A stretch of 64,000 bases of DNA from a virus. This document shows positions 1 through 25,612 of the stretch, piece after piece. Numbering within the stretch: position 1 is the first letter of the stretch; each line of letters starts with the position of its first letter. The stretch is from positions 66,131 through 130,130 of IMG/VR virus record IMGVR_UViG_3300033552_000001; one strand, given 5' to 3'. The notes beneath the pieces were generated by a model. It worked only from the letters and a program-made list of their open reading frames with translations. It had not been told where the DNA came from and made no database searches. A program made the translations under genes and the position numbers.

Positions 1-2985
1 TTACAGGCACAACAACAAGCATTAGCTAATGTTGAAACAATGGATGGTAAAATAGCTGATACTCCTGCTTCACTTACTTATTTAGATACTGTATTAAAAG
101 AATTTCCTTTGGGAACTGTTGAAACAAACATCACTCCCAAGTATTTACTATCAGATGATGGTAAAACATTTGTTGCAGGTATTAAAAAGAAATTCAATGT
201 GCATTCAATGTTTGCTCATATAATTACTCATAGAAACACTACTACTGGTAAAAAGAATATCGGCCCTGATGTTAACTGGAATTTATTAGATATTGTATTG
301 AATAGACTTGATGTACAAATCAATCCTAAGAATGCTGTTATGGTTGAAATTAATGGAAAACAAGAATCATTTGATTCTCTTCAGTTATTTTTAAATCATA
401 AAATGGAAAATGGTGGTGAATTTTTAAGAGTATTTGATGTACTATCCACTATGATTTCTGCTGCAACTGATGAGGCTAAAGAGCAATTAAATGCAAGATA
501 TGGACTTACTATTGATGCTTTAAATGCAATTCTTCCTTTTGTTGCTATGGGAGGAAATCTTTCTATTGGAATTGCCTTAGTAAATCAACCAGTTATTAAA
601 GAATTTTTAGCTTTTAAAGCCAAGAAGAATTATGCTGTTTTAACAAAAAAAGAAACTGGATATAAATATTTTAACAATGAAAAGATTATTGAAGAAATGT
701 TTAAATCACAAGATGCTTATGAAATTATAAAAGCATCAGAACTTGTATTTTCAATAGATGATTTAGCCAAAGGACTTAGACCAAAACAATATGCTGAATC
801 AACAAAAGAAATAAAAATGGCAATGTTAAGAGACTTTTTAAAGTTGTCAGAAATAACTGAATATGGAAATAATGTAGTGGGAGCAATTAAGCTTAAAAAA
901 GGACTTTCTACTGATATTTATGCTTTTAATGATACCTTAGAAAAATTGGCTAAAATACAATATGAACCAGGAAGTACAGAAGATACATCACCATTTTTTA
1001 TTAAAGAAGAAATTAAAAACAATCCATTAGCAAAAGAAATCAAAGGTAAAATAGAAATAGTAGAAAGAATTAATGAAGCTTTGCCAAAACTTCTTGCTAT
1101 AAAATCTCCAATATTTGAAGCACTTAGAGCTTCTATTAAGACACAAGCAAAGGAAAATTGGAATAATGTTGAATTAAAAGAATTGGATAGTGAATTAGAA
1201 TCATTTATTTACAGCCAAATGCTTTATAAATCATTAGAAGAGGCTGGAAACTATGATGCATTATTATTAAAGTATTTAAAATCAGGACTTACAGATCCTA
1301 CTGATGATAATAACATTGTTAATGTATTTACAAAATTTAAAACAGCTATTGCAAATGATCCTACTTTAAATAACAATTCTTTAATTAAGAAATTAGAATT
1401 ATTAACAGAAAGTGGTACATCATTTTTAAAACTAAATCAATTAGTTAAATTAAATGATAATCAAATGACTGATTTAGCTGATGCATTTACTTTTTTAGCT
1501 AATAGACCATTTTCAATAAATGAAGGAATATCACCATTAGAATTGACAAAGGCTTTACAAGCATTGTATATTATTAAAGATGGTATGCAATTTAAATACA
1601 CAGGTATTACTAAAATATTTCCTGTTGAAGTATTTACAAGAATGTCTGAAAATATTGAAAAAGTAATAAAGAATGGTGAAGATGTAAAAGAATTATTTAC
1701 TACAGCAACATTTAACGAATTTCAAAGAAGATATTTTGAATCTGTTAAACATAAAAGTAGTAGTAAAACAATTACAATTTATGATGTTAAAGGAAAAAAT
1801 GATGAGTATTTATTTGAATTAGATAAAATTACTGGTGCAAGTTTAGCTATTTATACTGAACAGAAAGGAAGTGGAATAACAGTTGATAAGAAAGGTAATT
1901 TACTAAGATATATTACATTAAAAATTGGTAAAGATTCTTACAGTATGAAGCTTATTTCTAATGATGGATTAACATCTGTTTACAATGAATACAAACCACT
2001 TGGTACTTCTAATAGTACTTTAATGGGACTTCCTATTGAAAATAATGTATTTGTCAGTACTGATAGAAAAGAAGTTTCTTTACCAAGTGATAGTGAAAAG
2101 CTTGTAGTTTTTGAAGGAAATATTAACTTTACAGAAATTAATAACAATCAAGATGGACAAAGAACAAAAGGACAGGATAAAATTAATCAAAGACTATTAT
2201 CAGATTCAGAAAGACGAAATATTGATAGATTATCATCAATACGAAATAAGGAAATGGAAACACAAGCCTTGTCAGGGATTATTTTGTATGCTGATTCCAA
2301 TAAAAAAGGAATTATATCAAAAACTAATAAAGAAGGAAACATTAAAGTGTTTAAAGTGGACAGCTCTGAGTCCTTATTATCAGTTATACAACAAAAGCTT
2401 AATGACAGGAACACCCTCAACGGAAAAATATTTGCAGAACTTAAAAGAGTGGCTGACACCAAATTGGTAGTTGATAATAACGGGCATTTTATTTATGTTA
2501 CTGGAGATAATATGTATATTAATCCTAAAGCAATGTTTGAACATTTAAAAACAGAAAATGGTGAAAATTATTTAGACACATTGTTATTTGAGGAATTAAT
2601 TCATATTATTACTAATCAATTAATTACTTTTCAAGAAAAAATAAAATTAACAAAAGATCAATTAAAAAAAGACTCTGCTTTTGTCACTAAAGTTGCAAAT
2701 GTTTATCCTACAAAAAATTCTTATGAAGCATATTTTGAGTATATAAGAGTAATGGTTCAACAAGAACTAATAGGAACAACTACTTTAAAAGAAAGAATAA
2801 CATGGGATGAAACTGCCATTAAAATATTTAATGAGCTTATGGAATTTATTTTTTCAGTAATTGAAACAAGAAACACTAAAAAATTAATTAAAAAACACGT
2901 TAATTATATTAATGAAATTAAGAATCAATCAAACCAAGAACAACAATCAGATACAGAATTAAAAATTTGTGAAGGTAATAAATAA
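1..2985 (+). CDS. C-terminal part of crAss-like virion (non-canonical two-barrel) RNA polymerase; gene is 5'-truncated by the window
   Basis: Frame is open from base 1. LSTMISAATDEAKEQLNARYGL...AMG...LVNQPVIKEF matches the AxxDxAK...G...NQP signature that follows the catalytic motif in crAss-like/phi14:2 gp66-type RNAPs. Degenerate zincin-like LFEELIHIIT near the C-terminus. The DxDxD motif is not in the window. Confidence 0.72.
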   Translation, partial: LQAQQQALANVETMDGKIADTPASLTYLDTVLKEFPLGTVETNITPKYLLSDDGKTFVAGIKKKFNVHSMFAHIITHRNTTTGKKNIGPDVNWNLLDIVLNRLDVQINPKNAVMVEINGKQESFDSLQLFLNHKMENGGEFLRVFDVLSTMISAATDEAKEQLNARYGLTIDALNAILPFVAMGGNLSIGIALVNQPVIKEFLAFKAKKNYAVLTKKETGYKYFNNEKIIEEMFKSQDAYEIIKASELVFSIDDLAKGLRPKQYAESTKEIKMAMLRDFLKLSEITEYGNNVVGAIKLKKGLSTDIYAFNDTLEKLAKIQYEPGSTEDTSPFFIKEEIKNNPLAKEIKGKIEIVERINEALPKLLAIKSPIFEALRASIKTQAKENWNNVELKELDSELESFIYSQMLYKSLEEAGNYDALLLKYLKSGLTDPTDDNNIVNVFTKFKTAIANDPTLNNNSLIKKLELLTESGTSFLKLNQLVKLNDNQMTDLADAFTFLANRPFSINEGISPLELTKALQALYIIKDGMQFKYTGITKIFPVEVFTRMSENIEKVIKNGEDVKELFTTATFNEFQRRYFESVKHKSSSKTITIYDVKGKNDEYLFELDKITGASLAIYTEQKGSGITVDKKGNLLRYITLKIGKDSYSMKLISNDGLTSVYNEYKPLGTSNSTLMGLPIENNVFVSTDRKEVSLPSDSEKLVVFEGNINFTEINNNQDGQRTKGQDKINQRLLSDSERRNIDRLSSIRNKEMETQALSGIILYADSNKKGIISKTNKEGNIKVFKVDSSESLLSVIQQKLNDRNTLNGKIFAELKRVADTKLVVDNNGHFIYVTGDNMYINPKAMFEHLKTENGENYLDTLLFEELIHIITNQLITFQEKIKLTKDQLKKDSAFVTKVANVYPTKNSYEAYFEYIRVMVQQELIGTTTLKERITWDETAIKIFNELMEFIFSVIETRNTKKLIKKHVNYINEIKNQSNQEQQSDTELKICEGNK

Positions 2986-3055: not shown

Positions 3056-3898
3056 ATGCAAGAATTAACAAAAAACAATCAATTAGAGGTGGACAACCAG
3101 CCGTTATTAACCTCAAAGATTTTGAAATTAGATTATGAAACTCTAATTTCTCCATTTGATGAAAGTATCAAAGTAATTAGGTTTAAAAGTTTTAAGGACA
3201 AAAATGTGAATTTATTTTCTGGCACTGAAACAGCAAAAAATTTAAATCACAGTAATTTAGCAATGGCTTTATTAAGAAGTGAATGTATTCCTAATAAAGA
3301 CTATTTTGTATTGGAAAAAAAGAATTGTCCAAAAGAAATTTGGAAAGATTTTGAAGAATTAAATTTTGTTTCTAAGTTCTCTCCAAGAACAACTATTTTA
3401 TTTGAATCTGGTTATTGGAAGCTTTTAAACCATTCTGAATTACCATTAGGTTTGAAGTACAGAAATTGGGTAGCATCAGAAGTAATGCCTACTATATCAA
3501 AAACAGGAAAATATGAATTACCTAAATTTGAAATAGATACAAAATTACTATCTTCTGCAACTGAAAGATCTGTTCAACTTGAAAATAGTAAAAGTATTAA
3601 TACTTATAATTTTGAATTAGACGGTACAAAGAAAGTGATTGAGTATAATTTTAAAAACTGTTTACAAGTAACTAATAAAACTCCAAAAGAAATTAAAAAA
3701 ACTTATGGTAGACCAGATAAATCAGCAAAAGAAATATTAAGAAGAACTAATCCTGAATGTGCTATGACAATGACAATGAATGATTATTTAGTTGAAAAGT
3801 ATAATTTAGAAATAGAACAATTAAAAGAAACTGATGAATTTCTAACTAAAACATTTCAATCATTAGGTAAATTAGGAATAACATTAAAAATTCAATAA
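3056..3898 (+). CDS. Bro-N domain (antirepressor-like) DNA-binding protein
   Basis: ILFESGYWKLLNHSELPLGLKYRNWVASEVMPTISKTGKY matches the Bro-N consensus ESGLY.L...S..P.A..F..WV..EVLP.IRKTG.Y. Confidence 0.8.
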   Translation: MQELTKNNQLEVDNQPLLTSKILKLDYETLISPFDESIKVIRFKSFKDKNVNLFSGTETAKNLNHSNLAMALLRSECIPNKDYFVLEKKNCPKEIWKDFEELNFVSKFSPRTTILFESGYWKLLNHSELPLGLKYRNWVASEVMPTISKTGKYELPKFEIDTKLLSSATERSVQLENSKSINTYNFELDGTKKVIEYNFKNCLQVTNKTPKEIKKTYGRPDKSAKEILRRTNPECAMTMTMNDYLVEKYNLEIEQLKETDEFLTKTFQSLGKLGITLKIQ

Positions 3899-10424: not shown

Positions 10425-11084
10425 ATGCAATTATTAGAAAATAAAAAAACTATTAGCTCCCTTGAATTGGTTGAGCAAATTAACATTTTTAGAAAAGAAG
10501 AAAAATTAAAAGAGCCTTCAAATAGATTATATTCTGAAATTACTCATGATTCTTTATTAAAAATTATTAGAGATGAATTTGGAGAAGAAATCTCGCTCGG
10601 TGAGATGAAGGGGTCAGAATACACATCAAGAGGAAAAATGTATCCAATGTTTAATTTAACTTTAACTGAAGCTACTCAAGTGTTAATTAAAGAATCAAAA
10701 GTTGTCAGAAAAGCAATGATTAGTTATATTGAAAAGTTAGAGAATGTATTAAAAAAAGAATATTCAGTAAAAGAATTGCTTATAATGCAACTTGCTGGAA
10801 TTGAAAGAGCTGAATTAGCAGAACAAAAAGTAGAGAATTTAGTAATAGCGTTAGATAGTAGTATGGATTGGTGTAGCATTATTAAAGTAGCAACACATAA
10901 TGTAGTTCATGAATCTATTTTTAGTTGGAGAATATTAAAAAATAAATCAATTGAATTGGGATATGAAATTAAAAAATTACCATCAACAAGATATGAATAC
11001 CAAAATAGTTATCATGTAAATTGTTTTAGAATGTGTTATCCAGAATACAATTACAATTTTAATAAATACATAAATCTAATTTAA
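10425..11084 (+). CDS. Rha-like phage regulatory/antirepressor protein
   Basis: ISSLELVEQINIFRKEE...LLKIIRDEF...YPMFNLTLTEATQVLIKESKVVRKAMISYIEKLE. Confidence 0.65.
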   Translation: MQLLENKKTISSLELVEQINIFRKEEKLKEPSNRLYSEITHDSLLKIIRDEFGEEISLGEMKGSEYTSRGKMYPMFNLTLTEATQVLIKESKVVRKAMISYIEKLENVLKKEYSVKELLIMQLAGIERAELAEQKVENLVIALDSSMDWCSIIKVATHNVVHESIFSWRILKNKSIELGYEIKKLPSTRYEYQNSYHVNCFRMCYPEYNYNFNKYINLI

Positions 11085-13231: not shown

Positions 13232-16200
13232 ATGGCAATATATCAAGATTCAAGTTCAGGAGTACAAAAAACAAATGTTTTAAATTTACCTGTAAATGGT
13301 AATATTTTAACTGCTGCTACAAGTGTAGACACTTATACAAATATTACTTTCTTACAAACTACTCCTGGAATTACAGCAACTTTATTAAACCCAACTGTAA
13401 CAACTGTACATAAAGTAATTGTATTAGAAAATTTACCTTCTTCAACCACTGCAATTAATATAGTGAGTGCTTTATCTTTACCTTTTAGTTTAGGAATTGG
13501 TAAATCTGTACAATTAGTTTGGAATGGTACAAATTGGAGTAAACTTATTGGAGATGGAAAAGTAACTTATGGAATAGGTATTCCATTAACTATTTCTTCA
13601 GATAATCTTAATGATACTTATATTTTAACAGATTCTGGTATTAACACTGGAATTGTACAATCAGTATGGGTATTTGATGGATTATATTGGAAAAAAACAG
13701 TGACAATTATAGAGCCTGTTATTGAATTTTCAGTTAATACAAATCCTAATACAGCTCTTACTACTTTTTTACCAAATATAGTAAAAAGAATAGATGTTCT
13801 TTATAGAAGTACAATTGATGGTAGTTTATGGAGCAGTGATGGTGTAAATTATATAAGCACAGTTGTTACTTTAAATAGAACAATTCAATCAATTTCAGCT
13901 ACTGGTAATATTATAGCATGGAATAGTGTAGTGCAAATAGGAGCAACCCCTTTAACAACTAACATTATACTTACTTTACCAAGTAATATTGGTTCTAAAA
14001 ACAAAGATATTGTTTTTAAAAGACTTGATTCAACTTTATTCACAGTAACTATTCTTCCTTTTGGAACAGAAAGTGTACAAATTACAACTCCTGAAAGTAT
14101 AAACAGTCAATATGGGGCATTAACAATACATTCAATAAGTAATATTAAATCCCAACAAACTGGAAATATAGGTATTTCAGGTAGTACTCCTACAATTAGT
14201 TATTTGCATGCTAAAAGAATTAATAGTAATCAGACTATTTCTTCAGGTTCATGGTCTAATAGAGATATAATTTTAAATGGCTATGAAGGAAATATTCCTT
14301 ATAATACAACTACAGGAGTAGCTACATTATCAGCAGGAACAGCTTATAAAATTACTGCTGGTCTTGGTATTCTTGCTGGAGGTAATTATTTAATACAATA
14401 TAGTTTAGTAGATGCTGTAACTAATGCTGTTATTAGTCCAGTAATTGAAATGGTTCAATCTAGTAATAATACTTTTAATGTTTCTGCTCCCACTTTAAAT
14501 TTTATTTATAAACCATCAGTAACTCAAAGTGTAAAACTTAGATTTGGTGGTGGTACTAATATGCAATCTGGGGAATCAATTAGATTTGAGTTACTTAGTA
14601 ATCTTACAATAACTCAAATTGGATCTACTCCTACTCTTGTAAATCAAGCATTAACAACAGGTGATTTTCCTGTAGGAGGAGCAATTCAAGCAACTGTAAT
14701 TGATCCTTATGTATTAGGTTTTAATATACCACAAACCACACCAAATCAAACATTAGTTATACCAGCACCTGCTTCATCTACTGATAGTAGAATTATTTAT
14801 ATCAATAATACTGGAACTGCTGATTTTAAAATAGGAGATATTACAGTGGGTGTAAATAAAACTGTAGCTTATATATGGAATGGAGTAATATGGAGTAATT
14901 TTAGTACAGAAGTAGTAGGTGCTGTATTGTCAGAATATGGTGAAAATTTAATTATTACTGATGCACAACCTCTTGGAGGATCAGTGTCAGATGTATTAGG
15001 TAGTTCATTTACATTGCCAACAGCAGGAATATGGGAAGTTGAATATTCATTAACAGGTAGAGTTGATTCTACAGGTTCAAATTGGTATTCTTATATTACA
15101 AATACTTCTAATTTTGTAATTCCTAATAGTACAATTCAATCTTTTACTTCTGGTGGTAATAATGCCACTATGACTTTAAACCAAAAAGTATTAATAAGTG
15201 TAACAGGTTCAACAAGTTATAAACTTAGGGCTGCTTGTCATCCTATTAGTGTTGGAAGTATTTTTAATAGTGTACCACTAGCAGGTGGTAATGGAGGTAC
15301 ATCAAGAATAACTTGGAAGAAAGTATCTGGTTATCTTCCTGTAATAGGAAGTACTGTAGATTATGTATTTTTAAAACCTACTAGTAATGGAGGTTCAGCA
15401 GTTGTTAATACTGATATTGGATTAGGAATTGCTTTGTCAGGAAATCTTACAGTAGTTAATAATACTATTTCATTATTGGCTGGTAAAACTTATGAATTAG
15501 AAGCTTTTTTAGACTATACAAGTTCTGTTGCTCCTACAAATAGTTATCTTGAATATTATTGGACAGATAATGCTGGAATTAGACTTCCTAATTCAAGTGG
15601 AGGATTAGCAATACAAGCAAATTCATCAGATGGTAGTATATCAGTATTAGCAAAAGGTTATATCACAACTACTATAGCTACTGTTGTAAAACTTAGAACA
15701 ACATTAGTATCAGGAGCAGTTACATTAGTACCAAGTAATTCTTATGTAAGTGCTAAACAAGTTGGCAGTACAGCTTTAATAACTAATACTTCAATCCCAA
15801 TAAGTAATTTGCCAACTGGAGGTAATATACAAACTGCATTAATTGATCCTTACATTTTAGGATTTAATATCAATCAAACAACTGCAAATCAGTTATTAAA
15901 TATTCCAAATCCAACAACTGCCTCTGTAAATAGAATTATTTACATTAATAATGTTGGTACTGTTTCTTTTATTACTAATGGACTTGCTATTACAGCAGGA
16001 CAAACAGGTGCATTTATTTGGAATGGAGTAGCTTGGTCTACATTTTCAGCTCAAACATCTGGTTCAGTGCTATCTGAATATGGTGAAAATTTAGGAATTG
16101 TTAATAATCAAGGGGTAACTACAAGTATAACAGATGTTACAGGTAGTTCTTTTACAATTCCTTCTGCTGGTGTATGGGAAATTGAATATGCTTTAAGTGG

Positions 16201-18388
16201 ACATGTTACAAATTCTGGACAATTGTTTTTTGCTTATCTTACTGATAATGCAAATATTACAATTCCCAACACTTCAATTCATTTACATTCTGGAGCTGCT
16301 AATGCTTCATTAACATTAAGTCAGAGAGCTGTAATTACTACAATAGGAGCAGCAACTTACAAACTTAAAGCAGGAGTTAGTTCTGGTGGTGGTACTATTA
16401 GTAATAGTTTACAAACTACAACTAATCCAGGAGGTAGTTCAAGAATTAATTGGAAAAAGATTTCAGGATTTGTTCCAGTGATAGGTCAAAGTGTAGAAAC
16501 TACTTATGCTAAACAGACTACAACTCAAGGTACTCCTTCAAATGGAACTGCTTTAAACTTTGAAAATATTGATGGAACTACGCCATTTTCTGGAGGAACA
16601 ACATTTACATTATCTGCTAATAAAACATATTATTTACAAGGTGCTGCTGGTATTATGTCAGGTTCAAATGGTGGATTTAGTGTACAGTTTTATAATGTAA
16701 TTACTGGACTTTACATTGGTATTGCATCAATGACAAGTTCTCCAGCCAACGGACAAAATCATACACCTTCTGGTGGGGGAGTAGCAACTGCTAAAATTAC
16801 ACCAACTATAAATACACAAATACAATTAAGAATAATTAATATTCAAGGAACTGCTGGTATTATTGGTGGTTCAGGGCTTATAAATGCGGGTGCTGGTGTT
16901 GGTTCAGGAGATAGTGGTAATAGTGCGTCATGGTTAAAAATCACCCAAGAAGGTTCAAGTGCTTATTCAGTTCTTAATACTTATGTAGGGGCAACTTCAA
17001 CTACTGCTGGAATAACAGGTGGAGTACCAGTATCAGCAATAGGAGATCAAGGAAAAGTATTATTAGCTGATGGAACTTGGATAACTCCTTTTACAGAAAT
17101 TAATAGAATTAAACCAGCAACAGCAACCAATACAATTGATAATACAAATTTTAATCAAACTTGGAACTGGTCAACTGCTACTACTCAAAATGCTTTAAAT
17201 TTAGTAGCTCCTTCTTTAACAACTGGTGCTTTATTATCATTAATTTCATCGGCAACTACAACAGCATTAACAATACCATCTGGCAAAGTTGGCATTGGGA
17301 CTGCAACTCCAAATTCTACTGCAAAATTAGAAGTAGTTGGTAATATTCTTTCTACAACATTTACTAAATCAGGCGGTTTAGTTTCTCAAAATTTATTAGC
17401 GGATGGTACTGTTTTTGATAAATATAATAGCTCAATATCAACTGGAGTTTATTTTCAAAACTCAACACTTGCTACAACATTAATAGATGGAATGACTGTT
17501 ACACCACCATTAGCAGGTACTTATAAAATAGACTTTAATGGTCAGTTCAATACCCAACTTGCTAATGTTACTCAACAAGCCACAGTAGATTTGAATGCTT
17601 TGTATTTAGATTTAAATTCACAACCTGTTACTGGCATTTTTCCATTATTTACTTCAGGTACAACAATTACTCCAGGAGTTTATTATGTTGCAGGAGCAGT
17701 TGCTATATCTGGAACAATAACTTTAAATGGAGGGGGTAATGCTAATTCAATATTTATATTTAGAACTGATGCAGCATTATCTACTTCTGCAAGTTGTGTG
17801 TTTAATCTTGTGAATGGAGCTGCTGCTAAAAATATATTTTTTATAGCTGTTGGAGCAATAACAATTGGAGCAAGCAGTAATATATCTGGCACATTTATTT
17901 CTCCTTCAGCACCTATTAACATTGGTTCTGGAGCATACATAAATGGTAGATTTTATTCAATTGGTTCAGCTCTTACAGTGAATGGTAGTGTAATATTATC
18001 AGCACCTTCAACAACATTTGCAATGGGTGTTTTAGCTAACTTTATTTTATTTACAACATCAGGGACAGTTACTAACAGTGGGGCAAATACATTTGTGGGA
18101 GATATTGGTACAAATAGTGGTCTTGTTACTGGATTTGAAGCAGCTACTGTTTCAGGTAGTATTTATTTACCAAATCAAGGGGCTTCATTAGTTGCTGTTT
18201 CAATTTACATAGATAATGTTATAGTGAGTACTTCAACAAGAGAAAGAGTTGATACAATTGATAAAGTAGATGTTATACTAACAGAAACAGTATCTCTTAC
18301 AGCAGGTCAGGTTATTTCTATAAAAGTTTTAAATTCGATTGGTATTTCTAGATTTTATAATAGAAATTTAAGAGTAAGTAAAATATAA
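13232..18388 (+). CDS. Long modular tail fibre/adhesin with internal repeats and a C-terminal ice-binding-like (DUF3494) domain
   Basis: 1718 aa. About 380-aa-period repeats, fibre motif GATSTTAG..GGVP....QGKVLLADGTW, Bacteroidota-type VGIGTATP motif, and DUF3494 motifs in the last ~280 aa. Confidence 0.8.
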   Translation: MAIYQDSSSGVQKTNVLNLPVNGNILTAATSVDTYTNITFLQTTPGITATLLNPTVTTVHKVIVLENLPSSTTAINIVSALSLPFSLGIGKSVQLVWNGTNWSKLIGDGKVTYGIGIPLTISSDNLNDTYILTDSGINTGIVQSVWVFDGLYWKKTVTIIEPVIEFSVNTNPNTALTTFLPNIVKRIDVLYRSTIDGSLWSSDGVNYISTVVTLNRTIQSISATGNIIAWNSVVQIGATPLTTNIILTLPSNIGSKNKDIVFKRLDSTLFTVTILPFGTESVQITTPESINSQYGALTIHSISNIKSQQTGNIGISGSTPTISYLHAKRINSNQTISSGSWSNRDIILNGYEGNIPYNTTTGVATLSAGTAYKITAGLGILAGGNYLIQYSLVDAVTNAVISPVIEMVQSSNNTFNVSAPTLNFIYKPSVTQSVKLRFGGGTNMQSGESIRFELLSNLTITQIGSTPTLVNQALTTGDFPVGGAIQATVIDPYVLGFNIPQTTPNQTLVIPAPASSTDSRIIYINNTGTADFKIGDITVGVNKTVAYIWNGVIWSNFSTEVVGAVLSEYGENLIITDAQPLGGSVSDVLGSSFTLPTAGIWEVEYSLTGRVDSTGSNWYSYITNTSNFVIPNSTIQSFTSGGNNATMTLNQKVLISVTGSTSYKLRAACHPISVGSIFNSVPLAGGNGGTSRITWKKVSGYLPVIGSTVDYVFLKPTSNGGSAVVNTDIGLGIALSGNLTVVNNTISLLAGKTYELEAFLDYTSSVAPTNSYLEYYWTDNAGIRLPNSSGGLAIQANSSDGSISVLAKGYITTTIATVVKLRTTLVSGAVTLVPSNSYVSAKQVGSTALITNTSIPISNLPTGGNIQTALIDPYILGFNINQTTANQLLNIPNPTTASVNRIIYINNVGTVSFITNGLAITAGQTGAFIWNGVAWSTFSAQTSGSVLSEYGENLGIVNNQGVTTSITDVTGSSFTIPSAGVWEIEYALSGHVTNSGQLFFAYLTDNANITIPNTSIHLHSGAANASLTLSQRAVITTIGAATYKLKAGVSSGGGTISNSLQTTTNPGGSSRINWKKISGFVPVIGQSVETTYAKQTTTQGTPSNGTALNFENIDGTTPFSGGTTFTLSANKTYYLQGAAGIMSGSNGGFSVQFYNVITGLYIGIASMTSSPANGQNHTPSGGGVATAKITPTINTQIQLRIINIQGTAGIIGGSGLINAGAGVGSGDSGNSASWLKITQEGSSAYSVLNTYVGATSTTAGITGGVPVSAIGDQGKVLLADGTWITPFTEINRIKPATATNTIDNTNFNQTWNWSTATTQNALNLVAPSLTTGALLSLISSATTTALTIPSGKVGIGTATPNSTAKLEVVGNILSTTFTKSGGLVSQNLLADGTVFDKYNSSISTGVYFQNSTLATTLIDGMTVTPPLAGTYKIDFNGQFNTQLANVTQQATVDLNALYLDLNSQPVTGIFPLFTSGTTITPGVYYVAGAVAISGTITLNGGGNANSIFIFRTDAALSTSASCVFNLVNGAAAKNIFFIAVGAITIGASSNISGTFISPSAPINIGSGAYINGRFYSIGSALTVNGSVILSAPSTTFAMGVLANFILFTTSGTVTNSGANTFVGDIGTNSGLVTGFEAATVSGSIYLPNQGASLVAVSIYIDNVIVSTSTRERVDTIDKVDVILTETVSLTAGQVISIKVLNSIGISRFYNRNLRVSKI
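14654..16486 (+). repeat. Intragenic ~230-aa two-domain unit repeated twice with ~380-aa period
   Basis: IDPYVLGFNI..YINNTG..IWNG..LSEYGENL..GSSFTLPTAGIWEVEY..SRITWKKVSGYLPVIG (14654-15349) versus IDPYILGFNI..YINNVG..IWNG..LSEYGENL..GSSFTIPSAGVWEIEY..SRINWKKISGFVPVIG (15797-16486). Confidence 0.9.
17550..18180 (+). other. DUF3494 (IBP-1 fold) ice-binding-like domain, apparently circularly permuted
   Basis: QATVDLNALYLDLNSQ helix; TITPGVY; ITLNGGGNANSIFIFRTDAALST; LVNGAAAKNIFF; then the normally N-terminal GVLANFILFTTSGTVTNSGANTFVGDIGTNSGLVTGF. Confidence 0.85.
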
Positions 18389-18415: not shown

Positions 18416-18766
18416 ATGCAAGCAAAATCACTTTTAGAAATAATAAATGGCATCCTTGAAAGTAATCATAAAACATTAGTAATAAGCTGGTTATTCACAG
18501 GAAGCATTATTACTTATTTATACAACAACAATGTCTCATTACAATCAAAGTTAGATTTAAGTCAAGCAAATAATCAAACATTACTTATTAAATCTAATGA
18601 CAATTGTGAAGAACAAATTAAAAACAATAGAGCTAAGTTTCAGTTTCAATTAGATGATTTTATTAATAAATCAAATAATAGAAGAGATAGTACAGAGAAT
18701 TATTTTTACAATGAACTTAGAAAAGCAAATCAAAAAATTAATGAAAAAATAATCAAAATCCAATGA
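18416..18766 (+). CDS. Single-TM coiled-coil protein (holin/inner-spanin candidate)
   Basis: Hydrophobic LVISWLFTGSIITYLY then coiled coil; upstream of the endolysin. Confidence 0.35.
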   Translation: MQAKSLLEIINGILESNHKTLVISWLFTGSIITYLYNNNVSLQSKLDLSQANNQTLLIKSNDNCEEQIKNNRAKFQFQLDDFINKSNNRRDSTENYFYNELRKANQKINEKIIKIQ

Positions 18767-19008
18767 AAACATTAACAATTATTCTTTTAGTTCTTTTTAT
18801 AGGTCTTTTAAGCAAGGATAACCACGAACATAAAATAGTGTTTACAGCTCCTAAATTAAAAGAAACACCTGTTAAAAAGATTTCTCAAAAAGTTGAGACT
18901 CAATTGCACATTCTTCAAAATAATATGAAGAAATATGATAGAGTAATAAAAATAAAAGCATTACAAGATAGTATTATAGTGATACCAGATACTGTTATTA
19001 AAAAATAA
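18763..19008 (+). CDS. Small N-terminally membrane-anchored protein (lysis accessory candidate)
   Basis: MKTLTIILLVLFIGLLS; ATGA overlap with the previous gene; no lipobox Cys. Confidence 0.35.
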   Translation: MKTLTIILLVLFIGLLSKDNHEHKIVFTAPKLKETPVKKISQKVETQLHILQNNMKKYDRVIKIKALQDSIIVIPDTVIKK

Positions 19009-19072
19009 AAGATGTTTAAAAAATCTGATTTTTAGATTAAGTTATAATTTTGTATTTTTGTATAAAAAAAAT

Positions 19073-20053
19073 ATGACATCTGGAATTTATAAAATAACAT
19101 CTCCTTCTAATAAGATTTACATAGGGCAATCTATGGATATAGAAAAAAGGTTTAGACAGTACAAAAATAATCATTTTACTAAACAAGTAAGATTAAACCA
19201 TTCTATAAATAAATATGGATTTGATAATCATGTACTTGAAATTATTGAAGAATGTTTATTTGAACAATTAAATTTTAGAGAAAGACATTGGCAAGAACAT
19301 TATGATGTTATAGGAAAAAATGGATTAAATTGTGTTTTAGTTAATACTAAATATAAAAAAGCAGTTCCTTCTAAAGAGTCTATTGAAAAAAATAGAAATA
19401 CACATAAAGAACTTTATAGACAAGGAAAAAGTCCTTTATGTAAATTACATTTGTTTCAAGTAGGTGTAAATGCTTCTTTTTATGGTAGAAAACATTCTGA
19501 TAAAGCAAAACAAGAAATGAGTCAAGCTAAATTAGGTATAAAATGGACAGATGAATTTAGAAGAATAAGAAAAGAAAATTATATAAAAGAAAATCATCCA
19601 AATTATAATAAATCTCATTCTGAAATAACAAGAAAAAAAATATCAGAAAGAGCAAAAGAAAGATTAAGTATATTTCATTGTAATGCTAAAAGAGTTATTA
19701 ACATAGAAACTTTAGAAGTATTTAAAGATGTTAAAACAGCTAATTTATCAATATTAGAATTAAACAAAACTAGAAGAGAGTTAAGTAGAATTTTATCTTA
19801 TGCAACTTATAATCCTTCTAAATTAATGTTTTGTGAAAACTATGAAAATTTAGAAAAAAGAGAAGAAGGATTATTAAAAATGAATAAAGAATTTCCAATA
19901 AAAGCAGTTATAAATACAATCACAAAAGAAATTTTTAATACAGTAAAAGAAGCTGCAAAGTCAATAAGTATGGATAAAGGAAGTTTAAGTAATAGATTAA
20001 GAAATGTAATTTTTAATAATACTGACTTTATATTTTTATCAAATTATAAATAA
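19073..20053 (+). CDS. Free-standing GIY-YIG homing endonuclease with NUMOD3 and NUMOD1-like domains
   Basis: SGIYKITSPSNKIYIGQSMDIEKRFRQY; NUMOD3-like FYGRKHSDKAKQEMS and YNKSHSEITRKKISE; C-terminal FNTVKEAAKSI. ATG start at 19073. Confidence 0.9.
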   Translation: MTSGIYKITSPSNKIYIGQSMDIEKRFRQYKNNHFTKQVRLNHSINKYGFDNHVLEIIEECLFEQLNFRERHWQEHYDVIGKNGLNCVLVNTKYKKAVPSKESIEKNRNTHKELYRQGKSPLCKLHLFQVGVNASFYGRKHSDKAKQEMSQAKLGIKWTDEFRRIRKENYIKENHPNYNKSHSEITRKKISERAKERLSIFHCNAKRVINIETLEVFKDVKTANLSILELNKTRRELSRILSYATYNPSKLMFCENYENLEKREEGLLKMNKEFPIKAVINTITKEIFNTVKEAAKSISMDKGSLSNRLRNVIFNNTDFIFLSNYK

Positions 20054-20055
20054 AT

Positions 20056-20610
20056 ATGAACTTTACAAAAAAAGACTTTGAAGAATTTAAAATAGTTAAT
20101 ACTGATTTATATTTAAATTGGTTTAATTTGTATTGTGTAGAGTTTAAAATTAATACAGCAGATAGATTACTTTGCTTCCTGCCTAATTTACTACATGAAT
20201 CTAATAATTTTGAATGGGTTAAAGAAATTTTACCTAAAAACAATCCTATTTATGTAAAAAAACTTGGTAATTATTTTGGCAGAGGGCTTATGCAAGTCAC
20301 TCATCAAAAAAACTATAAATTATTTAATGATTGGTGTAATTTAAATATTAAAGAATTTAATAAAGATTTTATTAAAAACCCTGAATTATTACAAACTCCA
20401 CAATATGCTGTATTATCGGCATTTTGGTTTTGGAAAAGTAATAATTTAGAAAAATATGCGGACAGAAAAGATTTTTTAAATGTATGCTCATTAATTAATA
20501 CAGGCAGAATACAAAAGCCTTCAAAGCCACATAAAATAAATGGATTGGATGACAGAATTAAAAAGTATGCAGTCATTGAAAAATGGTGCATTAAAAACAA
20601 AATAACATAA
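20056..20610 (+). CDS. GH19 (chitinase-like) endolysin
   Basis: LHESNNF..VKE, YFGRGLMQVTHQKNY, PELL, SAFWFW, IN.G..NGLDDR. Confidence 0.9.
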   Translation: MNFTKKDFEEFKIVNTDLYLNWFNLYCVEFKINTADRLLCFLPNLLHESNNFEWVKEILPKNNPIYVKKLGNYFGRGLMQVTHQKNYKLFNDWCNLNIKEFNKDFIKNPELLQTPQYAVLSAFWFWKSNNLEKYADRKDFLNVCSLINTGRIQKPSKPHKINGLDDRIKKYAVIEKWCIKNKIT

Positions 20611-20828
20611 TGCATAATTGTCAAACTTGTGGTTGTAATAGCCATTCAACTTGTAATTGTAATACTCCTATAATTGCAAGACCAGTAGGTCAAATATCTG
20701 GTGAATTATTAGGAAGTAATCAAATTGCTTTAATTCAAAATGGAGCAGTAATTGGTACAATTCCTGTGGTATCATCAGGAGGAACAACAGATATATTAGA
20801 TGCTTTTGGTGATGTAATCCCTAATTAA
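20610..20828 (+). CDS. Small Cys-rich protein, likely structural
   Basis: MHNCQTCGCNSHSTCNCN; coupled to the lysin gene by TAATG. Confidence 0.45.
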   Translation: MHNCQTCGCNSHSTCNCNTPIIARPVGQISGELLGSNQIALIQNGAVIGTIPVVSSGGTTDILDAFGDVIPN

Positions 20829-22568: not shown

Positions 22569-24326
22569 ATGTCAAGAGCAAGATTAAATACACAATTAGA
22601 GGTTTCAAAACAACCTAATATGATATTAGCTTCTAATTCACAAAATGGAGCTAATGAAATGGTGTATAAGGAATTTAACACAACCTTAGCAAATTTAAAA
22701 ACATCAACAAATCTTTTTTATCCATTTGTAGTGATTACAGATATAGGTAAAGAAGGTATGTTTAAATATGATAGTACTGACACAACTTCTGTAAATGATG
22801 ACATTTACATGATTGTTGATGGTGCTGGTAAAAGATATAAAAGAACTTCTGATATTGTAGATACTAAATTACATAAAGTGTTAACAATTGCTAATTTACA
22901 AACATATACTCAATCTATACTTTCTTATTTTGATGGAAGTATTTGGGAAAAAAAGGGAGGTAATGTAGTAAGTAATGGTGGTACTTTTGCTGGTACAATT
23001 ATACAAGTCAATACTTCATTTTATTGGGAAAGAAAGGTTGAGAATTATGTATATCCAGAATGGTTTGGTGCTAATACTGCAAATACTAATAACAGTGCTG
23101 AATTACAAAAAACTATAGATTATGCTATTGCAAATAATTTTTCTGTTAAGTTGACAAGAAAAGCAGGAGGTAGTTTGGGTCTTTATAAAATAACATCACC
23201 TTTAACTATTAGTAATAGAATTTCAATTATTGGAGATGGTATCAATTATTGTGGTATATTTTGCATTGGTTGTCATGGATTTGTTATTAGTGAGGGGGTT
23301 AATAATGTTACAATAAAAGATTTAGCAATAATTGCAGGTACAAGATATACAACAACTGTTCATAACTTTATTGCTATACAAACTTTAGGTACTTTTGCTT
23401 CTCAAAACTATTGGCATATTTATAAAGATTTATTTCTTGATGGTTTTAGATGGGGAATACAATGTCCATATACTTGGTCTACTACAATTAACAGTGTTAC
23501 AAGTGTTTTTTGTGGTGGTGGTATTAATGCCCCAGGACAATCAGTCAATAACTTTGTTTCTCAATGTCAATTCACAGGAAATAATGAATCTGCTTCTATT
23601 GGTATTCAGCTTGGTGATGGTGCAATGGTTATTGAAGGTTGGGGAATTACAGATTGTTTAATTGCAAATTTTGCAGTAGGAATACAAATCAATGGAGGAA
23701 GTAATATCACCATCAGAGGAAATATCATTGATTTCTTTTCACAAAGAGGAATTTTCCTTCAAAGTAATGCTATTGGAGCTTCTATGAATTGTACTATTTC
23801 AGAAAACTATTTGGCTTGTAGTGCTGTAGGTTCAACAGGTATTTGGTTATTAAATAATTTTGCAGGCTCAATTTCACAAAACAGAGGTAATACTATTAGT
23901 GATAATCAAATTCTTTTTTACAGTCCAAGTTCATTAGCTTATGGAATTTATGTTTCAGGAACAGCTGAAATAAGCAATACAATTACAGGAAATAAAATTG
24001 AAGCTACTTCATTTGATTTAAGAGTGACTACAGGAATTAACACTGTTGTATCCAATAATAATTTTAAAGGAGCTGGTTATTTTGGAGATATTGCTGTTAA
24101 TTATTATGGAAATAGAGGAATTATCCAATCAAGTGCTGTTACTTTATTTCAATCAAACGGAAAAACAAAAATTTATTATGATAGTGTAATTCCAACAACA
24201 GGAACTTATACAATAGGAGATATATTATATAATGTAACTCCAGCTCCTTCTGTTTATGTTGGATGGGTATGTACTGTAAGTGGGACTCCTGGAACATGGA
24301 AAGGATTTGGACTAATACAAACATAA
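22569..24326 (+). CDS. Tailspike with right-handed beta-helix (pectate-lyase-like polysaccharide depolymerase)
   Basis: N-terminal G.F.YD..D...DD..IV...GKRYKR module; YVYPEWFGA...NSAELQKTIDYA start of Pectate_lyase_3-type helix; Asn/Cys ladders; C-terminal PTTGTYTIGD...GWVCTVSGTPGTW. Confidence 0.85.
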   Translation: MSRARLNTQLEVSKQPNMILASNSQNGANEMVYKEFNTTLANLKTSTNLFYPFVVITDIGKEGMFKYDSTDTTSVNDDIYMIVDGAGKRYKRTSDIVDTKLHKVLTIANLQTYTQSILSYFDGSIWEKKGGNVVSNGGTFAGTIIQVNTSFYWERKVENYVYPEWFGANTANTNNSAELQKTIDYAIANNFSVKLTRKAGGSLGLYKITSPLTISNRISIIGDGINYCGIFCIGCHGFVISEGVNNVTIKDLAIIAGTRYTTTVHNFIAIQTLGTFASQNYWHIYKDLFLDGFRWGIQCPYTWSTTINSVTSVFCGGGINAPGQSVNNFVSQCQFTGNNESASIGIQLGDGAMVIEGWGITDCLIANFAVGIQINGGSNITIRGNIIDFFSQRGIFLQSNAIGASMNCTISENYLACSAVGSTGIWLLNNFAGSISQNRGNTISDNQILFYSPSSLAYGIYVSGTAEISNTITGNKIEATSFDLRVTTGINTVVSNNNFKGAGYFGDIAVNYYGNRGIIQSSAVTLFQSNGKTKIYYDSVIPTTGTYTIGDILYNVTPAPSVYVGWVCTVSGTPGTWKGFGLIQT

Positions 24327-24896: not shown

Positions 24897-24945
24897 AAAA
24901 AAAAGGTAAGAAGGGGAAATATAATTTTCCCCTTCTTTATTTTTT
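24897..24945. terminator. Bidirectional intrinsic terminator at the convergence of the two gene blocks
   Basis: AAGAAGGGGAAA-tataat-TTTCCCCTTCTT with an A run upstream and a T run downstream. Confidence 0.85.
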
Positions 24946-25210
24946 ATATTTTAAAATAATCAATTTCAAAACTATCATCAATATATTCTGCTTCTAATAA
25001 ATCAAAATTCTTATCATTTCTTATTGAATCAGGAATAGGTAATTCAGATAAAACATCTTCATTTATTTCTTGTAATTTATACAAAAGACTATTATTTATA
25101 CAAGTTAAATACTCATCATGTTTAAAGTGCTCTTCAATTTCTTCATTAATTTCCAATTCAACTTCTTTTACATATTGAACTGTATAATATACATTTAATT
25201 TATGTTTCAT
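24944..25210 (-). CDS. Hypothetical acidic protein
   Basis: Last ORF before the terminator. Confidence 0.55.
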   Translation of the reverse strand: MKHKLNVYYTVQYVKEVELEINEEIEEHFKHDEYLTCINNSLLYKLQEINEDVLSELPIPDSIRNDKNFDLLEAEYIDDSFEIDYFKI

Positions 25211-25228
25211 TATTATCTTGTTTTAATT

Positions 25229-25612
25229 TTATCCAATTGTAAATCCTGTATCTTCTTCATCTGGATTTATATAGATTTCTTTTATTTCAACATGATTACA
25301 TTGATTAATACCACTTTTCTTTATTGATATTTTACTTGTGTAATATTTATTATAATAAAGTTTATTCATATAAAAATCCCAAAAAACATATCCTATTTTT
25401 CTATATCCCTCTTTATAGTCTATATAAATTTTATAAGATTTTTTAAGTATATCATGTTGGTTTCCTTTTAAAAAATAAAAAGTATCTAATTTACTGTTTA
25501 AAACATTATTTAAATCCTTTTTATTATTATGAATTGTTTTTCTATTCCAAGTATGAGTAATTCTTTTATAATTATCATACTTTAACAATATAATTTTTCC
25601 TACATGTGTCAT
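25229..25612 (-). CDS. Hypothetical basic protein
   Basis: ATGA-coupled operon packing. Confidence 0.5.
   Translation of the reverse strand: MTHVGKIILLKYDNYKRITHTWNRKTIHNNKKDLNNVLNSKLDTFYFLKGNQHDILKKSYKIYIDYKEGYRKIGYVFWDFYMNKLYYNKYYTSKISIKKSGINQCNHVEIKEIYINPDEEDTGFTIG

What the first reader, a model, noticed from the sequence alone, without database searches (positions are those of the whole stretch)
17500..18388. Circularly permuted ice-binding (DUF3494) domain inserted in the tip of a phage tail fibre
Seen in sequence: the fibre ends with the DUF3494 helix (QATVDLNALYLDLNSQ) and solenoid motifs (TITPGVY, ITLNGGGNANSIFIF, LVNGAAAKNIFF, INGRFYS). The segment that normally opens DUF3494 (GVLANFILFTTSGTVTNSG...GDIGTNSG) comes AFTER them, at 18023-18170. 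The whole unit interrupts a beta-sandwich: MTVTPPLAGTYKIDFNGQF [insert] ASLVAVSIYIDN...VSLTAGQVISIK. Established: the IBP-1 fold is a discontinuous beta-solenoid in which the N-terminal coil stacks on the C-terminal coil, so this permutation is structurally plausible and would make the solenoid continuous. Inference: the virion may bind ice (adsorption to ice or snow, recrystallisation inhibition, co-localisation with ice-bound Flavobacteria), or the flat solenoid face was repurposed as a receptor-binding surface. I know of no characterised virion-displayed permuted IBP.
Basis: partly seen in the sequence, partly recalled or inferred. Interest (0 to 1): 0.85.

Follow-up and report, generated by a model that had tools for sequence, protein, structure and literature searches.

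The report
Rearranged ice-binding fold on phage fibre tip
A crAss-like phage ends a 1718-residue fibre protein in a probably three-fold knob with a rearranged copy of the microbial ice-binding fold spliced into its far end; the face that grips ice in proven antifreeze proteins is kept, but whether it binds ice, host cells or another surface is untested.

Summary
The last ~320 residues of the 1718-aa ORF (13232-18388, +) form two nested domains. One is a TNF/C1q-like jelly roll, split into window 17423-17554 and 18176-18385. The other is a DUF3494 / IBP-1 beta-solenoid (17555-18175) inserted between its strands C and D.

The solenoid is circularly permuted: helix, then coils 2-6, then the coil that normally comes first. 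It aligns without a break across the domain A/B junction of the two-domain antifreeze protein IBPv (5UYT). That fits excision from a tandem Bacteroidota IBP.

The IBPv ice-binding rows map to small or hydroxyl residues. Across 67 module-bearing proteins the first row is 96% Ala.

The module is a swappable ~357-aa tip. It occurs on other viral-contig fibres next to tail genes, and on signal-peptide-bearing fibre-like proteins whose nearest Atlas clusters are mostly Bacteroidota. Two of those have collagen stalks, which implies trimers.

No paper, PHROG family or GenBank phage record with it was found. This scan had already noted the same module on other DNA (e1-5361796, e1-5941982, e1-5340574).

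Function is untested. I read it as an adhesive fibre tip, with ice as the best single candidate ligand. It is a new variant of a known kind, of moderate to high interest.

The parts
13232..18388 (+). Fibre-like virion protein gene, 1718 aa (P0001). It is Thr/Ser/Gly/Asn-rich with only 2 Cys, and has an internal duplication (aa 501-795 ~ aa 882-1152, 40% identity).
17315..18382 (+). Swappable tip cassette (P0001 aa 1362-1717): short neck plus head. It is 57% identical over 357 aa to the C-terminus of an otherwise unrelated 613-aa protein that bears a signal peptide (P0005).
   Evidence: family of 67 proteins with varied N-termini
17423..17554 (+). N-terminal half of the TNF/C1q-like jelly roll (strands A to C, ending in LAGTYKIDFNGQF, which is C1q strand C).
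17555..18175 (+). Inserted, circularly permuted DUF3494 / IBP-1 domain (P0002 aa 86-292).
17567..17617 (+). Long alpha-helix of the IBP-1 fold (P0002 aa 90-106). Here it is the first element of the domain.
   Evidence: H90-106; alignment to the IBPv helix
17654..17998 (+). Solenoid coils 2-6 (P0002 aa 119-233). They carry the equivalents of IBPv ice-binding row 1 (A1515, A1542, P1561, A1580) and row 2 (S1517, T1544, N1563, T1582).
17999..18022 (+). Short linker (LSAPSTTFA). It is homologous to the inter-domain linker of tandem IBPv.
   Evidence: domain 2 alignment
18023..18175 (+). Relocated 'first' coil of DUF3494 (MGVLANFILFTTSGTVTNSG...GDIGTNSG...). It carries the row-1 and row-2 equivalents T1612 and T1614.
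   Evidence: pLDDT 90-95
18176..18385 (+). C-terminal half of the TNF/C1q-like jelly roll (strands D to H, ending in GISRFYNRNLRVSKI).

Best explanation
The gene encodes a long fibre of an uncultured crAss-like phage. Its last ~320 residues form an adhesive head.

Shown:
- The head is a TNF/C1q/BclA-type jelly roll.
- A complete DUF3494 (IBP-1) beta-solenoid is spliced into it between strands C and D.
- The solenoid is circularly permuted, with its usual first coil moved to the end.
- It aligns colinearly across the domain A/B junction of a tandem Flavobacteriaceae antifreeze protein.
- The residues equivalent to that protein's mutagenesis-mapped ice-binding rows are small or hydroxyl. They are almost invariantly Ala in row 1 across the module family.

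Inferred:
- The head trimerises. The fold family is obligately trimeric, and relatives carry collagen triple-helix stalks.
- By TNF/C1q topology the C-D loop lies at the apex, opposite the stalk, so three solenoids project from the distal tip.
- They act as a multivalent adhesin through the flat Ala/Thr face.

The best single candidate ligand is ice, or an ice-like ordered water layer. That would hold virions at ice or brine surfaces where ice-associated Bacteroidota live. The face has no aromatic or charged residues typical of glycan or protein sites. It is conserved rather than hypervariable. The same tip is used by both phages and secreted bacterial fibres.

My odds: the structural statement about 0.9; 'adhesive tip' about 0.75; ice as the selected ligand about 0.35-0.4. 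The confidence given for this entry (0.4) is for the full statement, including ice as the ligand.
For: - Pfam PF11999 at E 2.8e-28.
- 5uyt: E 4e-50, with query 90-289 colinear with chain 56-265 across the A/B junction, linker included.
- Swapped HMM order in all 22 module-bearing relatives.
- AF2 model with pLDDT 86.
- VIA Z 16-19 to IBP-1 structures, and Z 13-15 to TNF-like lectins, BclA, ExsFA, C1q, EDA and the cyanophage A4 tail protein, bridging residues 42..362.
- The same architecture in a 32%-identical member: Z 21 and Z 14.9, with further hits to the cyanophage A-1(L) short tail fibre and the phi812 spike knob.
- IBPv ice-binding rows and A-to-L mutant data (PMC5673226), mapped to T-A-P-A-A and T-T-N-T-S in this copy.
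- Row 1 is 96% Ala and row 2 is 96% S/T/A/G/N in 67 module proteins. Row 1 is 72% Ala in other close DUF3494 domains, and the row is not all-Ala in AnpIBP.
- Collagen repeats upstream of the module in P0140 and P0174.
- Module genes next to tail-fibre, minor-tail and portal genes in viral contigs L006 and L002.
- C1q-like heads are common on phage fibres in BFVD.
- crAss-like identity of the genome.
Against: - No ice assay, and the habitat of this record and of its relatives could not be established.
- DUF3494 proteins occur in many bacteria from non-icy habitats, with unknown function (PMC11645318).
- This copy has Thr and Pro at two of five first-row positions. In IBPv a bulky first-row residue (L174) weakens activity.
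- The conserved Ala row could instead be a buried inter-subunit or inter-domain interface. I could not inspect coordinates or fold a trimer.
- Tail attachment is not shown for this protein: no PHROG hit, an almost orphan N-terminus and no synteny with crAss001.
Confidence: 0.4

Rival explanations
1. Host-receptor binding. The head is an ordinary receptor-binding tip, and the solenoid, or the variable loops of the jelly roll and solenoid cap, recognises a Bacteroidota cell-surface polysaccharide or protein. The ice-binding ancestry is historical only.
For: - It sits at the C-terminal tip of a long fibre, and the cassette is swapped between unrelated N-termini as receptor-binding tips are.
- The best jelly-roll matches include TNF-like lectins (BC2L-C-nt, PLTL) and the carbohydrate-binding domain of a cyanophage short tail fibre.
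- The most variable positions lie in the jelly-roll loops, the helix surface and cap loops, not the solenoid core.
- Non-ice DUF3494 proteins are common.
Against: - The IBPv-equivalent face is conserved, not diversified, and lacks the aromatic and charged residues usual in glycan sites.
- The same tip sits on signal-peptide-bearing bacterial fibres, which do not need a phage receptor.
- The phage has another receptor-binding candidate, a beta-helix tailspike-like protein at 22569-24326.
Confidence: 0.35
2. Generic environmental adhesin that is neither ice- nor host-specific. The flat face sticks virions, and the bacterial fibres carrying the same tip, to a common abiotic or biotic surface such as exopolymer, algal cell wall or particles. 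This would be analogous to Ig-like capsid domains that hold phages in mucus.
For: - The tip is shared by phage fibres and secreted fibre-like bacterial proteins, some with collagen stalks. P0174 has a weak hit to the N-terminal domain of Bdellovibrio mosaic adhesive trimers.
- Signal-peptide-bearing and phage-type modules are intermixed in a tree.
- Raymond's suggestion that non-ice DUF3494s may bind other surfaces (PMC11645318).
Against: - No candidate surface has been identified.
- A small-residue face gives little basis for specific binding other than to ordered water or ice.
- The MAT hit is below the curated cut-off (29.6 against 60 bits) and is in a relative, not in this protein.
Confidence: 0.15
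3. Structural role only. The three solenoids pack against each other or against the jelly roll through the Ala ladder, stabilising or capping the fibre tip, and they bind nothing.
For: Ala ladders are typical of tightly packed interfaces. Row 1 is 96% Ala. pTM 0.70 suggests a defined inter-domain arrangement.
Against: - TNF/C1q heads trimerise stably without inserts (established knowledge).
- A 207-residue insert at the distal apex, kept across many fibres, is costly for a cap.
- Row 2 keeps the Thr/Ser hydroxyls characteristic of exposed ice-binding sites.
Confidence: 0.08

Closest known systems
IBPv, the two-domain DUF3494 antifreeze protein of Flavobacteriaceae isolate 3519-10 (PDB 5UYT; PMC5673226)
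   Same: It is the best sequence and structure match: E 4e-50, 35-38% identity, Z 19.4, rmsd 1.9 A over 153 residues. The fold is the same triangular solenoid plus helix. The Ala first row and the Thr/Ser second row of the mutagenesis-mapped ice-binding site have small-residue equivalents here. The inter-domain linker is also recognisable.
   Different: IBPv is a secreted protein with two complete, canonically ordered domains. Here there is a single domain made of 'rest of domain n + linker + first coil of domain n+1'. It is therefore circularly permuted, and it is nested inside another domain on a phage fibre. Activity has not been tested.
Single-domain IBP-1 proteins (FfIBP 4NU2, AnpIBP 7BWX, ColAFP 3WP9, TisAFP 3VN3, LeIBP 3UYU, SfIBP_1 6BG8, EfcIBP 6EIO)
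   Same: Same fold from the helix to the last coil (Z 16-18, rmsd 1.4-2.4 A, ~145 residues).
   Different: The order of elements differs. Those proteins begin with the coil that here comes last. They are free-standing or N-terminally fused domains, not loop insertions.
C1q/TNF-like trimeric heads on collagen or fibre stalks: BclA and ExsFA/BxpB of the Bacillus exosporium, the C1q domain of Caprin-2, EDA-A1, the TNF-like lectins BC2L-C-nt and PLTL, and phage tips (cyanophage A4 tail protein 9K09_A, A-1(L) short tail fibre 8KE9, phi812 knob)
   Same: The host domain has the same jelly roll (Z 13-15, rmsd ~1.9 A, 114-119 of ~130 residues). It has a C1q-like strand pattern. It sits at the C-terminus after fibre or collagen stalks in relatives.
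   Different: There is no Pfam C1q or TNF hit. No listed relative carries a 207-residue solenoid in the C-D loop.
Non-canonical DUF3494 proteins of Raymond 2024 (PMC11645318)
   Same: A published variation on the DUF3494 architecture that standard profiles recognise only partly.
   Different: Those variants add extra N-terminal coils and keep the canonical order. They are free bacterial proteins with PEP-CTERM tags. They are not permuted, not inserted and not viral.
Bacteroidota 'ice-binding family protein' clusters with PF26696 (PTL_trimer) + PF11999, ~430 aa
   Same: They are the nearest clusters in the ESM Atlas (scores 0.89-0.91). Members P0024 and P0026 contain the full module. The P0024 model repeats the nested architecture.
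   Different: They have a signal peptide and a short N-terminal trimer-type domain instead of a 1350-aa phage shaft. They are annotated only by Pfam name, and I found no paper on them.

Membership tests
DUF3494 / Ice_binding (PF11999), IBP-1 fold | Significant match to the family profile above Pfam's gathering score | tested here: met
   99.5 bits against a cut-off of 28.7, E 2.8e-28. NCBIfam IBP_CFB scores only 58.6 bits against 400, so it is not an equivalog of that subfamily.
DUF3494 / Ice_binding (PF11999), IBP-1 fold | Triangular right-handed beta-solenoid with a long alpha-helix alongside | tested here: met
   AF2 model pLDDT 86. Z 16-19 and rmsd 1.4-2.4 A to 25 solved IBP-1 entries. Repeated in relative P0024.
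DUF3494 / Ice_binding (PF11999), IBP-1 fold | Canonical order: first coil, then helix, then the remaining coils | tested here: not met
   The order is helix, coils 2-6, first coil. It is therefore a permuted variant, not a canonical member.
Functional ice-binding proteins | Flat face with aligned small or hydroxyl residues at the positions mapped in IBPv | tested here: inconclusive
   By alignment, row 1 is T-A-P-A-A and row 2 is T-T-N-T-S. The family is 96% Ala in row 1. Flatness and exposure could not be measured because no coordinates were available.
Functional ice-binding proteins | Measured thermal hysteresis, ice recrystallisation inhibition or ice shaping | not testable with these tools
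   Needs recombinant protein.
TNF/C1q-like trimeric jelly roll | Ten-strand jelly-roll fold covering the whole domain | tested here: met
   Z 13-15, 114-119 aligned residues, model range 42..362 bridging the insert. Z 12-15 in P0024.
TNF/C1q-like trimeric jelly roll | Sequence membership (Pfam C1q or TNF profiles) | tested here: not met
   Only PF11999 was reported for P0002 at E up to 1. The similarity is at fold level only.
TNF/C1q-like trimeric jelly roll | Homotrimer | not testable with these tools
   No multimer prediction is available. Indirect support comes from collagen triple-helix repeats before the module in P0140 and P0174, and from the Pfam name PTL_trimer on relatives.
Circular permutation by duplication and truncation of a tandem repeat | Colinear alignment with the junction of a tandem-domain relative | tested here: met
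   P0002 90-289 aligns to 5uyt 56-265 in one 99-bit stretch including the linker. Dozens of tandem DUF3494 representatives match 89-29x in one stretch.
Phage tail fibre / receptor-binding protein | Homology to a known tail-fibre family or anchor domain | tested here: not met
   No PHROG family for P0001 or P0002. No hit in 50,697 GenBank phage records. The N-terminal 420 aa has one weak relative.
Phage tail fibre / receptor-binding protein | Location in a virion or tail gene module of a phage genome | tested here: inconclusive
   The genome is crAss-like. The gene lies after the cargo / virion-RNAP-type genes and before the lysis genes and a beta-helix tailspike-like gene. Relatives sit next to tail-fibre, minor-tail and portal genes. 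There is no synteny with crAss001.
Mosaic adhesive trimer (MAT) chimeric fibres of Bdellovibrio (NF053851) | N-terminal MAT domain above the curated cut-off | tested here: not met
   Only relative P0174 hits, at 29.6 bits against a cut-off of 60. Only the C-terminal 362 aa (P0002) of the window's protein were scanned and had no such hit. It is an analogy of design, not membership.

The most novel reading that the evidence does not exclude
The virion itself binds ice. Three permuted IBP solenoids at the apex of a trimeric fibre head would anchor crAss-like and other phages, and bacterial fibres carrying the same tip, to ice crystal surfaces. This would be the first virion-displayed ice-binding protein. 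It would give a mechanism for retaining phages in brine channels, or for protecting them from recrystallisation damage.
Probability: 0.33. Interest if true: 0.85.

Novelty: new variant of a known kind. Interest (0 to 1): 0.62.

Why it matters
DUF3494 is the commonest microbial ice-binding fold, yet its role in the many carriers from non-icy settings is an open question. Here the fold appears in a new topology: circularly permuted, and nested in the apex of a C1q-like trimer head. It also appears in a new setting, as a swappable tip on phage fibres and on secreted bacterial fibres.

The region colinear with the tandem A/B junction is a textbook-quality example of permutation by duplication and truncation.

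Because the cassette is compact (~357 aa) and the IBPv ice-binding residues are mapped, the function question is directly testable with one recombinant protein and a few point mutants. If it binds ice, phage ecology in sea ice, snow and seasonally frozen lakes and soils gains a physical mechanism. If it does not, it gives a handle on what non-ice DUF3494 domains bind.

Tried and rejected
- tblastn of the tip against 50,697 GenBank phage records found no match. PHROGs gave no family for the whole protein or the tip.
- Papers: 'DUF3494 + phage', 'DUF3494 + permut*' and 'ice-binding + tail fiber' returned nothing relevant. PF26696 / PTL_trimer returned no paper.
- I tried to learn habitats by searching twelve IMG sample numbers in papers. 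There were no hits, so cold-habitat enrichment is unresolved.
- A homologue search with the N-terminal 420 aa found one weak relative. The idea of 'same anchor, different tips' could not be tested for this phage.
- Synteny with crAss001: its gp49 homologue is followed by a strand switch, not fibre genes.
With A3, the scan of 185,579 species genomes found only tandem or canonical DUF3494, and no full module. A sample of 400 Bacteroidia genomes had none either. So the full module was not found in the genomes searched, even though signal-peptide-bearing versions exist in metagenomes.
- Ulvibacter MAG locus L048 (44% identity; helix, solenoid, coil, then cadherin-like repeats) is cut at its 5' end. 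It cannot be classed as either permuted or tandem.
- Apparent 'full domain + extra coil' hits in L004, L006, L012 and P0021 look like HMM over-extension into jelly-roll strands. I did not treat them as intermediates.
- Rejected: a canonical order with a hidden N-terminal coil before the helix. Residues 42-85 align to TNF-like strands A to C.
- Rejected: a chance or low-complexity match, given the E-values and the two independent models.
- Model coordinates are not exposed. Face flatness, exposure and inter-domain contacts were therefore not measured.
Full report
**What is there**

The finding lies in the C-terminus of one long ORF, 13232..18388 on the + strand, 1718 aa (P0001). I worked mostly with its last 362 residues (P0002, window 17300-18385). 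Pfam reports a single family for this piece: PF11999 Ice_binding, E 2.8e-28, 99.5 bits against a gathering score of 28.7. The hit falls in two stretches, and the main one covers only profile positions 47-207 of 208. So the family assignment is far beyond chance, and the start of the profile is missing from the place where it should be.

**The order is swapped**

Three independent comparisons agree.
- Against the single-domain fungal protein AnpIBP (7bwx), query 119-233 matches chain 93-205, while query 241-293 matches chain 10-61.
- Against IBPv (5uyt), query 242-286 matches the N-terminal coil, chain 6-48.
- I built an HMM from 13 canonical single-domain DUF3494 proteins. In all 22 module-bearing relatives, the first hit is at HMM positions ~117-260 (helix and coils) and the second at ~38-100 (first coil). 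A canonical tandem protein used as control gives 48-258 twice.

**Where the permutation came from**

The best match in the PDB is the two-domain antifreeze protein IBPv of a Flavobacteriaceae isolate (E 4e-50). Query 90-289 aligns in a single 99-bit stretch with chain 56-265. That span is the rest of domain A, the inter-domain linker and the first coil of domain B. Dozens of tandem DUF3494 representatives in the 1.8-billion-protein library match query ~89-290 in the same way. This is what the duplication-and-truncation route to circular permutation predicts: the insert is a one-domain-long window cut out of a tandem array, offset by one coil. The closest cellular relatives found in species genomes are tandem DUF3494 proteins of Bacteroidota such as Ulvibacter, Spirosoma, Runella and Cytophagales.

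**Two nested domains**

An AlphaFold2 model built with 23 aligned sequences has mean pLDDT 86, and 90-98 through the solenoid and the relocated coil.

VIA-align gives Z 16-19 (rmsd 1.4-2.4 A, ~145-153 residues) between model residues 86-239 and the helix-to-C-terminus part of 25 solved IBP-1 entries. It gives Z 13-15 (rmsd ~1.9 A, 114-119 residues) between model range 42..362 and nearly whole TNF/C1q-like domains. These include the lectins BC2L-C-nt and PLTL, BxpB/ExsFA, BclA, Caprin-2 C1q, EDA-A1, Pgp3 and a cyanophage A4 tail protein (Foldseek agrees).

The jelly roll is therefore discontinuous: residues 42-85 and 293-362, with the solenoid between. The strand pattern reads like C1q. LAGTYKIDFNGQF corresponds to strand C, SLVAVSIYIDN to D, AGQVISIKV to G and ISRFYNRNLRVSKI to H. 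So the insert replaces the C-D loop. In TNF/C1q heads both termini lie at the base, and strand C runs from base to apex. The C-D loop is therefore at the apex, opposite the stalk. This placement is an inference from the known topology; I did not measure it.

A second model, of a 32%-identical relative that bears a signal peptide (P0024, pLDDT 83), repeats the architecture. It gives Z 21 for the solenoid and Z 14.9 for the bridging jelly roll. It also hits the carbohydrate-binding domain of the cyanophage A-1(L) short tail fibre and the phi812 spike knob.

**The trimer**

I could not fold a multimer. The TNF/C1q fold family is trimeric. Two relatives (P0140, P0174) carry collagen triple-helix repeats upstream of the module. 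Atlas clusters of related Bacteroidota proteins carry a Pfam domain named PTL_trimer. I therefore treat a three-fold head as likely but not shown.

**The ice-binding face**

Wang et al. mapped the IBPv ice-binding site by mutagenesis (PMC5673226). The first row is Ala41-Ala212-Ala193-Leu174-Ala147 in domain A and Ala253-Gly429-Ala410-Ala391-Ala364 in domain B. The second row is mostly Thr/Ser. Ala-to-Leu changes cut thermal hysteresis to below half of wild type (under 1 against 2.11 deg C), and L174A improves domain A.

I fixed the numbering offset using Cys165, Thr214 and the four Ala/Leu positions. With that, the rows map here as follows:
- Row 1: T256-A224-P205-A186-A159 in P0002, which is T1612, A1580, P1561, A1542 and A1515 in the whole protein.
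- Row 2: T258-T226-N207-T188-S161 in P0002.

Most relatives read AAAAA in row 1. Over 67 module-bearing proteins, the four solenoid positions of row 1 are 96% Ala. Row 2 is 96% S/T/A/G/N, with no aromatic residues and almost no charged ones. Other close DUF3494 domains show 72% Ala, and AnpIBP has T, S, L, A at these sites. The ladder is therefore not a general requirement of the fold.

The face that binds ice in the nearest proven antifreeze protein is thus under constraint in this module family. Two cautions apply. The window's own copy has Thr and Pro at two of the five first-row sites. And an Ala ladder could equally be a buried interface.

**How widespread it is**

The tip is a cassette. 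P0001 aa 1362-1717 is 57% identical to the C-terminus of P0005, a 613-aa protein with a signal peptide and an unrelated N-terminal part. Among the proteins I retrieved, 67 carry the full module. In 61 of them it is at the extreme C-terminus, on proteins of 299 to 1731 aa with unrelated N-termini.

In IMG/VR, about 15 of 46 DUF3494-bearing viral loci have the permuted module and the rest have the canonical order. In contig L006 the module gene lies two genes after a protein with strong tail-fibre PHROG hits. In L002 it follows a minor-tail-type protein, and a portal gene lies about 2.6 kb downstream.

About 18 of the 67 start with Bacteroidota-type signal peptides by a simple heuristic. They are intermixed with phage-type ones in a quick tree; I treat that only as a lead. 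One of them has a weak, sub-threshold match to the N-terminal domain of Bdellovibrio mosaic adhesive trimers. No full module was found in 185,579 species genomes with close-family patterns, or in 400 sampled Bacteroidia genomes.

**The phage**

The window belongs to a 130,130-bp IMG/VR record judged 88% complete, and it holds a single DUF3494 copy. The 1711-aa protein upstream matches the 'RNA-polymerase subunit' gp49 of crAss001 and other Crassvirales, including Cellulophaga phage phi14:2. An rIIA-like protein has its lowest E-value (3e-10) against IAS virus.

Downstream of the fibre gene are two small membrane-type ORFs, a GIY-YIG homing endonuclease, an endolysin, and a 585-aa right-handed beta-helix protein with tail-fibre C-terminal hits.

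'Tail fibre' for P0001 itself remains an inference. It has no PHROG hit, no GenBank phage match, an almost orphan N-terminus and no synteny with crAss001.

**Interpretation**

I read the head as an adhesive fibre tip that presents three solenoids at its apex. For the ligand, ice is the best single candidate, at about 0.35-0.4, for these reasons:
- The mapped ice-binding rows are conserved.
- The face is chemically unlike glycan or protein sites.
- It is conserved rather than diversified.
- Phages and bacterial fibres share it, which suggests an invariant target.

A host receptor (about 0.35) is the main rival. The jelly roll resembles lectins and phage carbohydrate-binding tips, and the most variable positions are in loops outside the solenoid core. 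A generic surface adhesin and a purely structural role are less likely.

**Novelty**

I found no paper describing DUF3494 on phages, or a permuted DUF3494. Raymond's non-canonical DUF3494s are a different variation. BFVD holds C1q-like phage heads, and DUF3494 proteins only from giant-virus MAGs, and no protein combining the two.

Within this scan the same module was already reported on other DNA (e1-5361796, e1-5941982, e1-5340574). Canonical DUF3494 cassettes in other phage tail proteins were also reported (for example e1-5975563). Those notes agree with what I found independently here.

I class it as a new variant of a known kind.

Noticed in passing
window 13232-18388 (P0001 aa 501-795 and 882-1152): The fibre shaft contains a ~290-aa internal duplication (40% identity, E 9e-67). 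A weaker third copy of its first sub-domain lies at aa 29-137. The repeats have C1q-like strand motifs (for example FTLPTAGIWEVEYSL) and a sub-threshold Pfam FNG-domain hit at aa 1077-1148.
   Followed up: partly
window 19058-20053: A GIY-YIG homing endonuclease (phrog_314, E 1e-33) sits between the fibre gene / two small membrane-type ORFs (18416-18766, 18763-19008) and the endolysin (20056-20610, phrog_181). It is a mobile element inside the fibre-lysis block.
   Followed up: no
window 22569-24326: A 585-aa protein with a right-handed beta-helix (PF13229) and a tail-fibre-type C-terminus (phrog_23059). It is a second, tailspike-like receptor-binding or depolymerase candidate in the same phage.
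   Followed up: no
window 3056-3898 and 10425-11084: Anti-repressor (Ant)-like proteins are encoded among the giant cargo and fibre genes of a crAss-like phage.
   Followed up: no
window 20610-20828: A small 72-aa ORF begins with a Cys/His-rich stretch (MHNCQTCGCNSHSTCNCN). It may be a metal-binding peptide, encoded directly after the endolysin.
   Followed up: no
window ~24900-25230: A strand switch. Genes run rightward up to ~24.9 kb and leftward from ~25.2 kb, and the GC skew changes sign at the same place.
   Followed up: no
L048 (Ulvibacter sp. MAG contig JBLHPX010000041.1), 2-2092: A 5'-truncated ORF with helix, solenoid and an extra first coil (44% identical to the phage insert), followed by cadherin-like repeats instead of a jelly roll. 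It may be a cellular permuted or 'n + 0.3' DUF3494 arrangement.
   Followed up: partly
L015, L017, L019-L047 (IMG/VR loci): About 30 further viral contigs encode canonically ordered DUF3494 domains in proteins of 315-1638 aa. The fold seems to be recruited by phages repeatedly and in more than one topology.
   Followed up: partly
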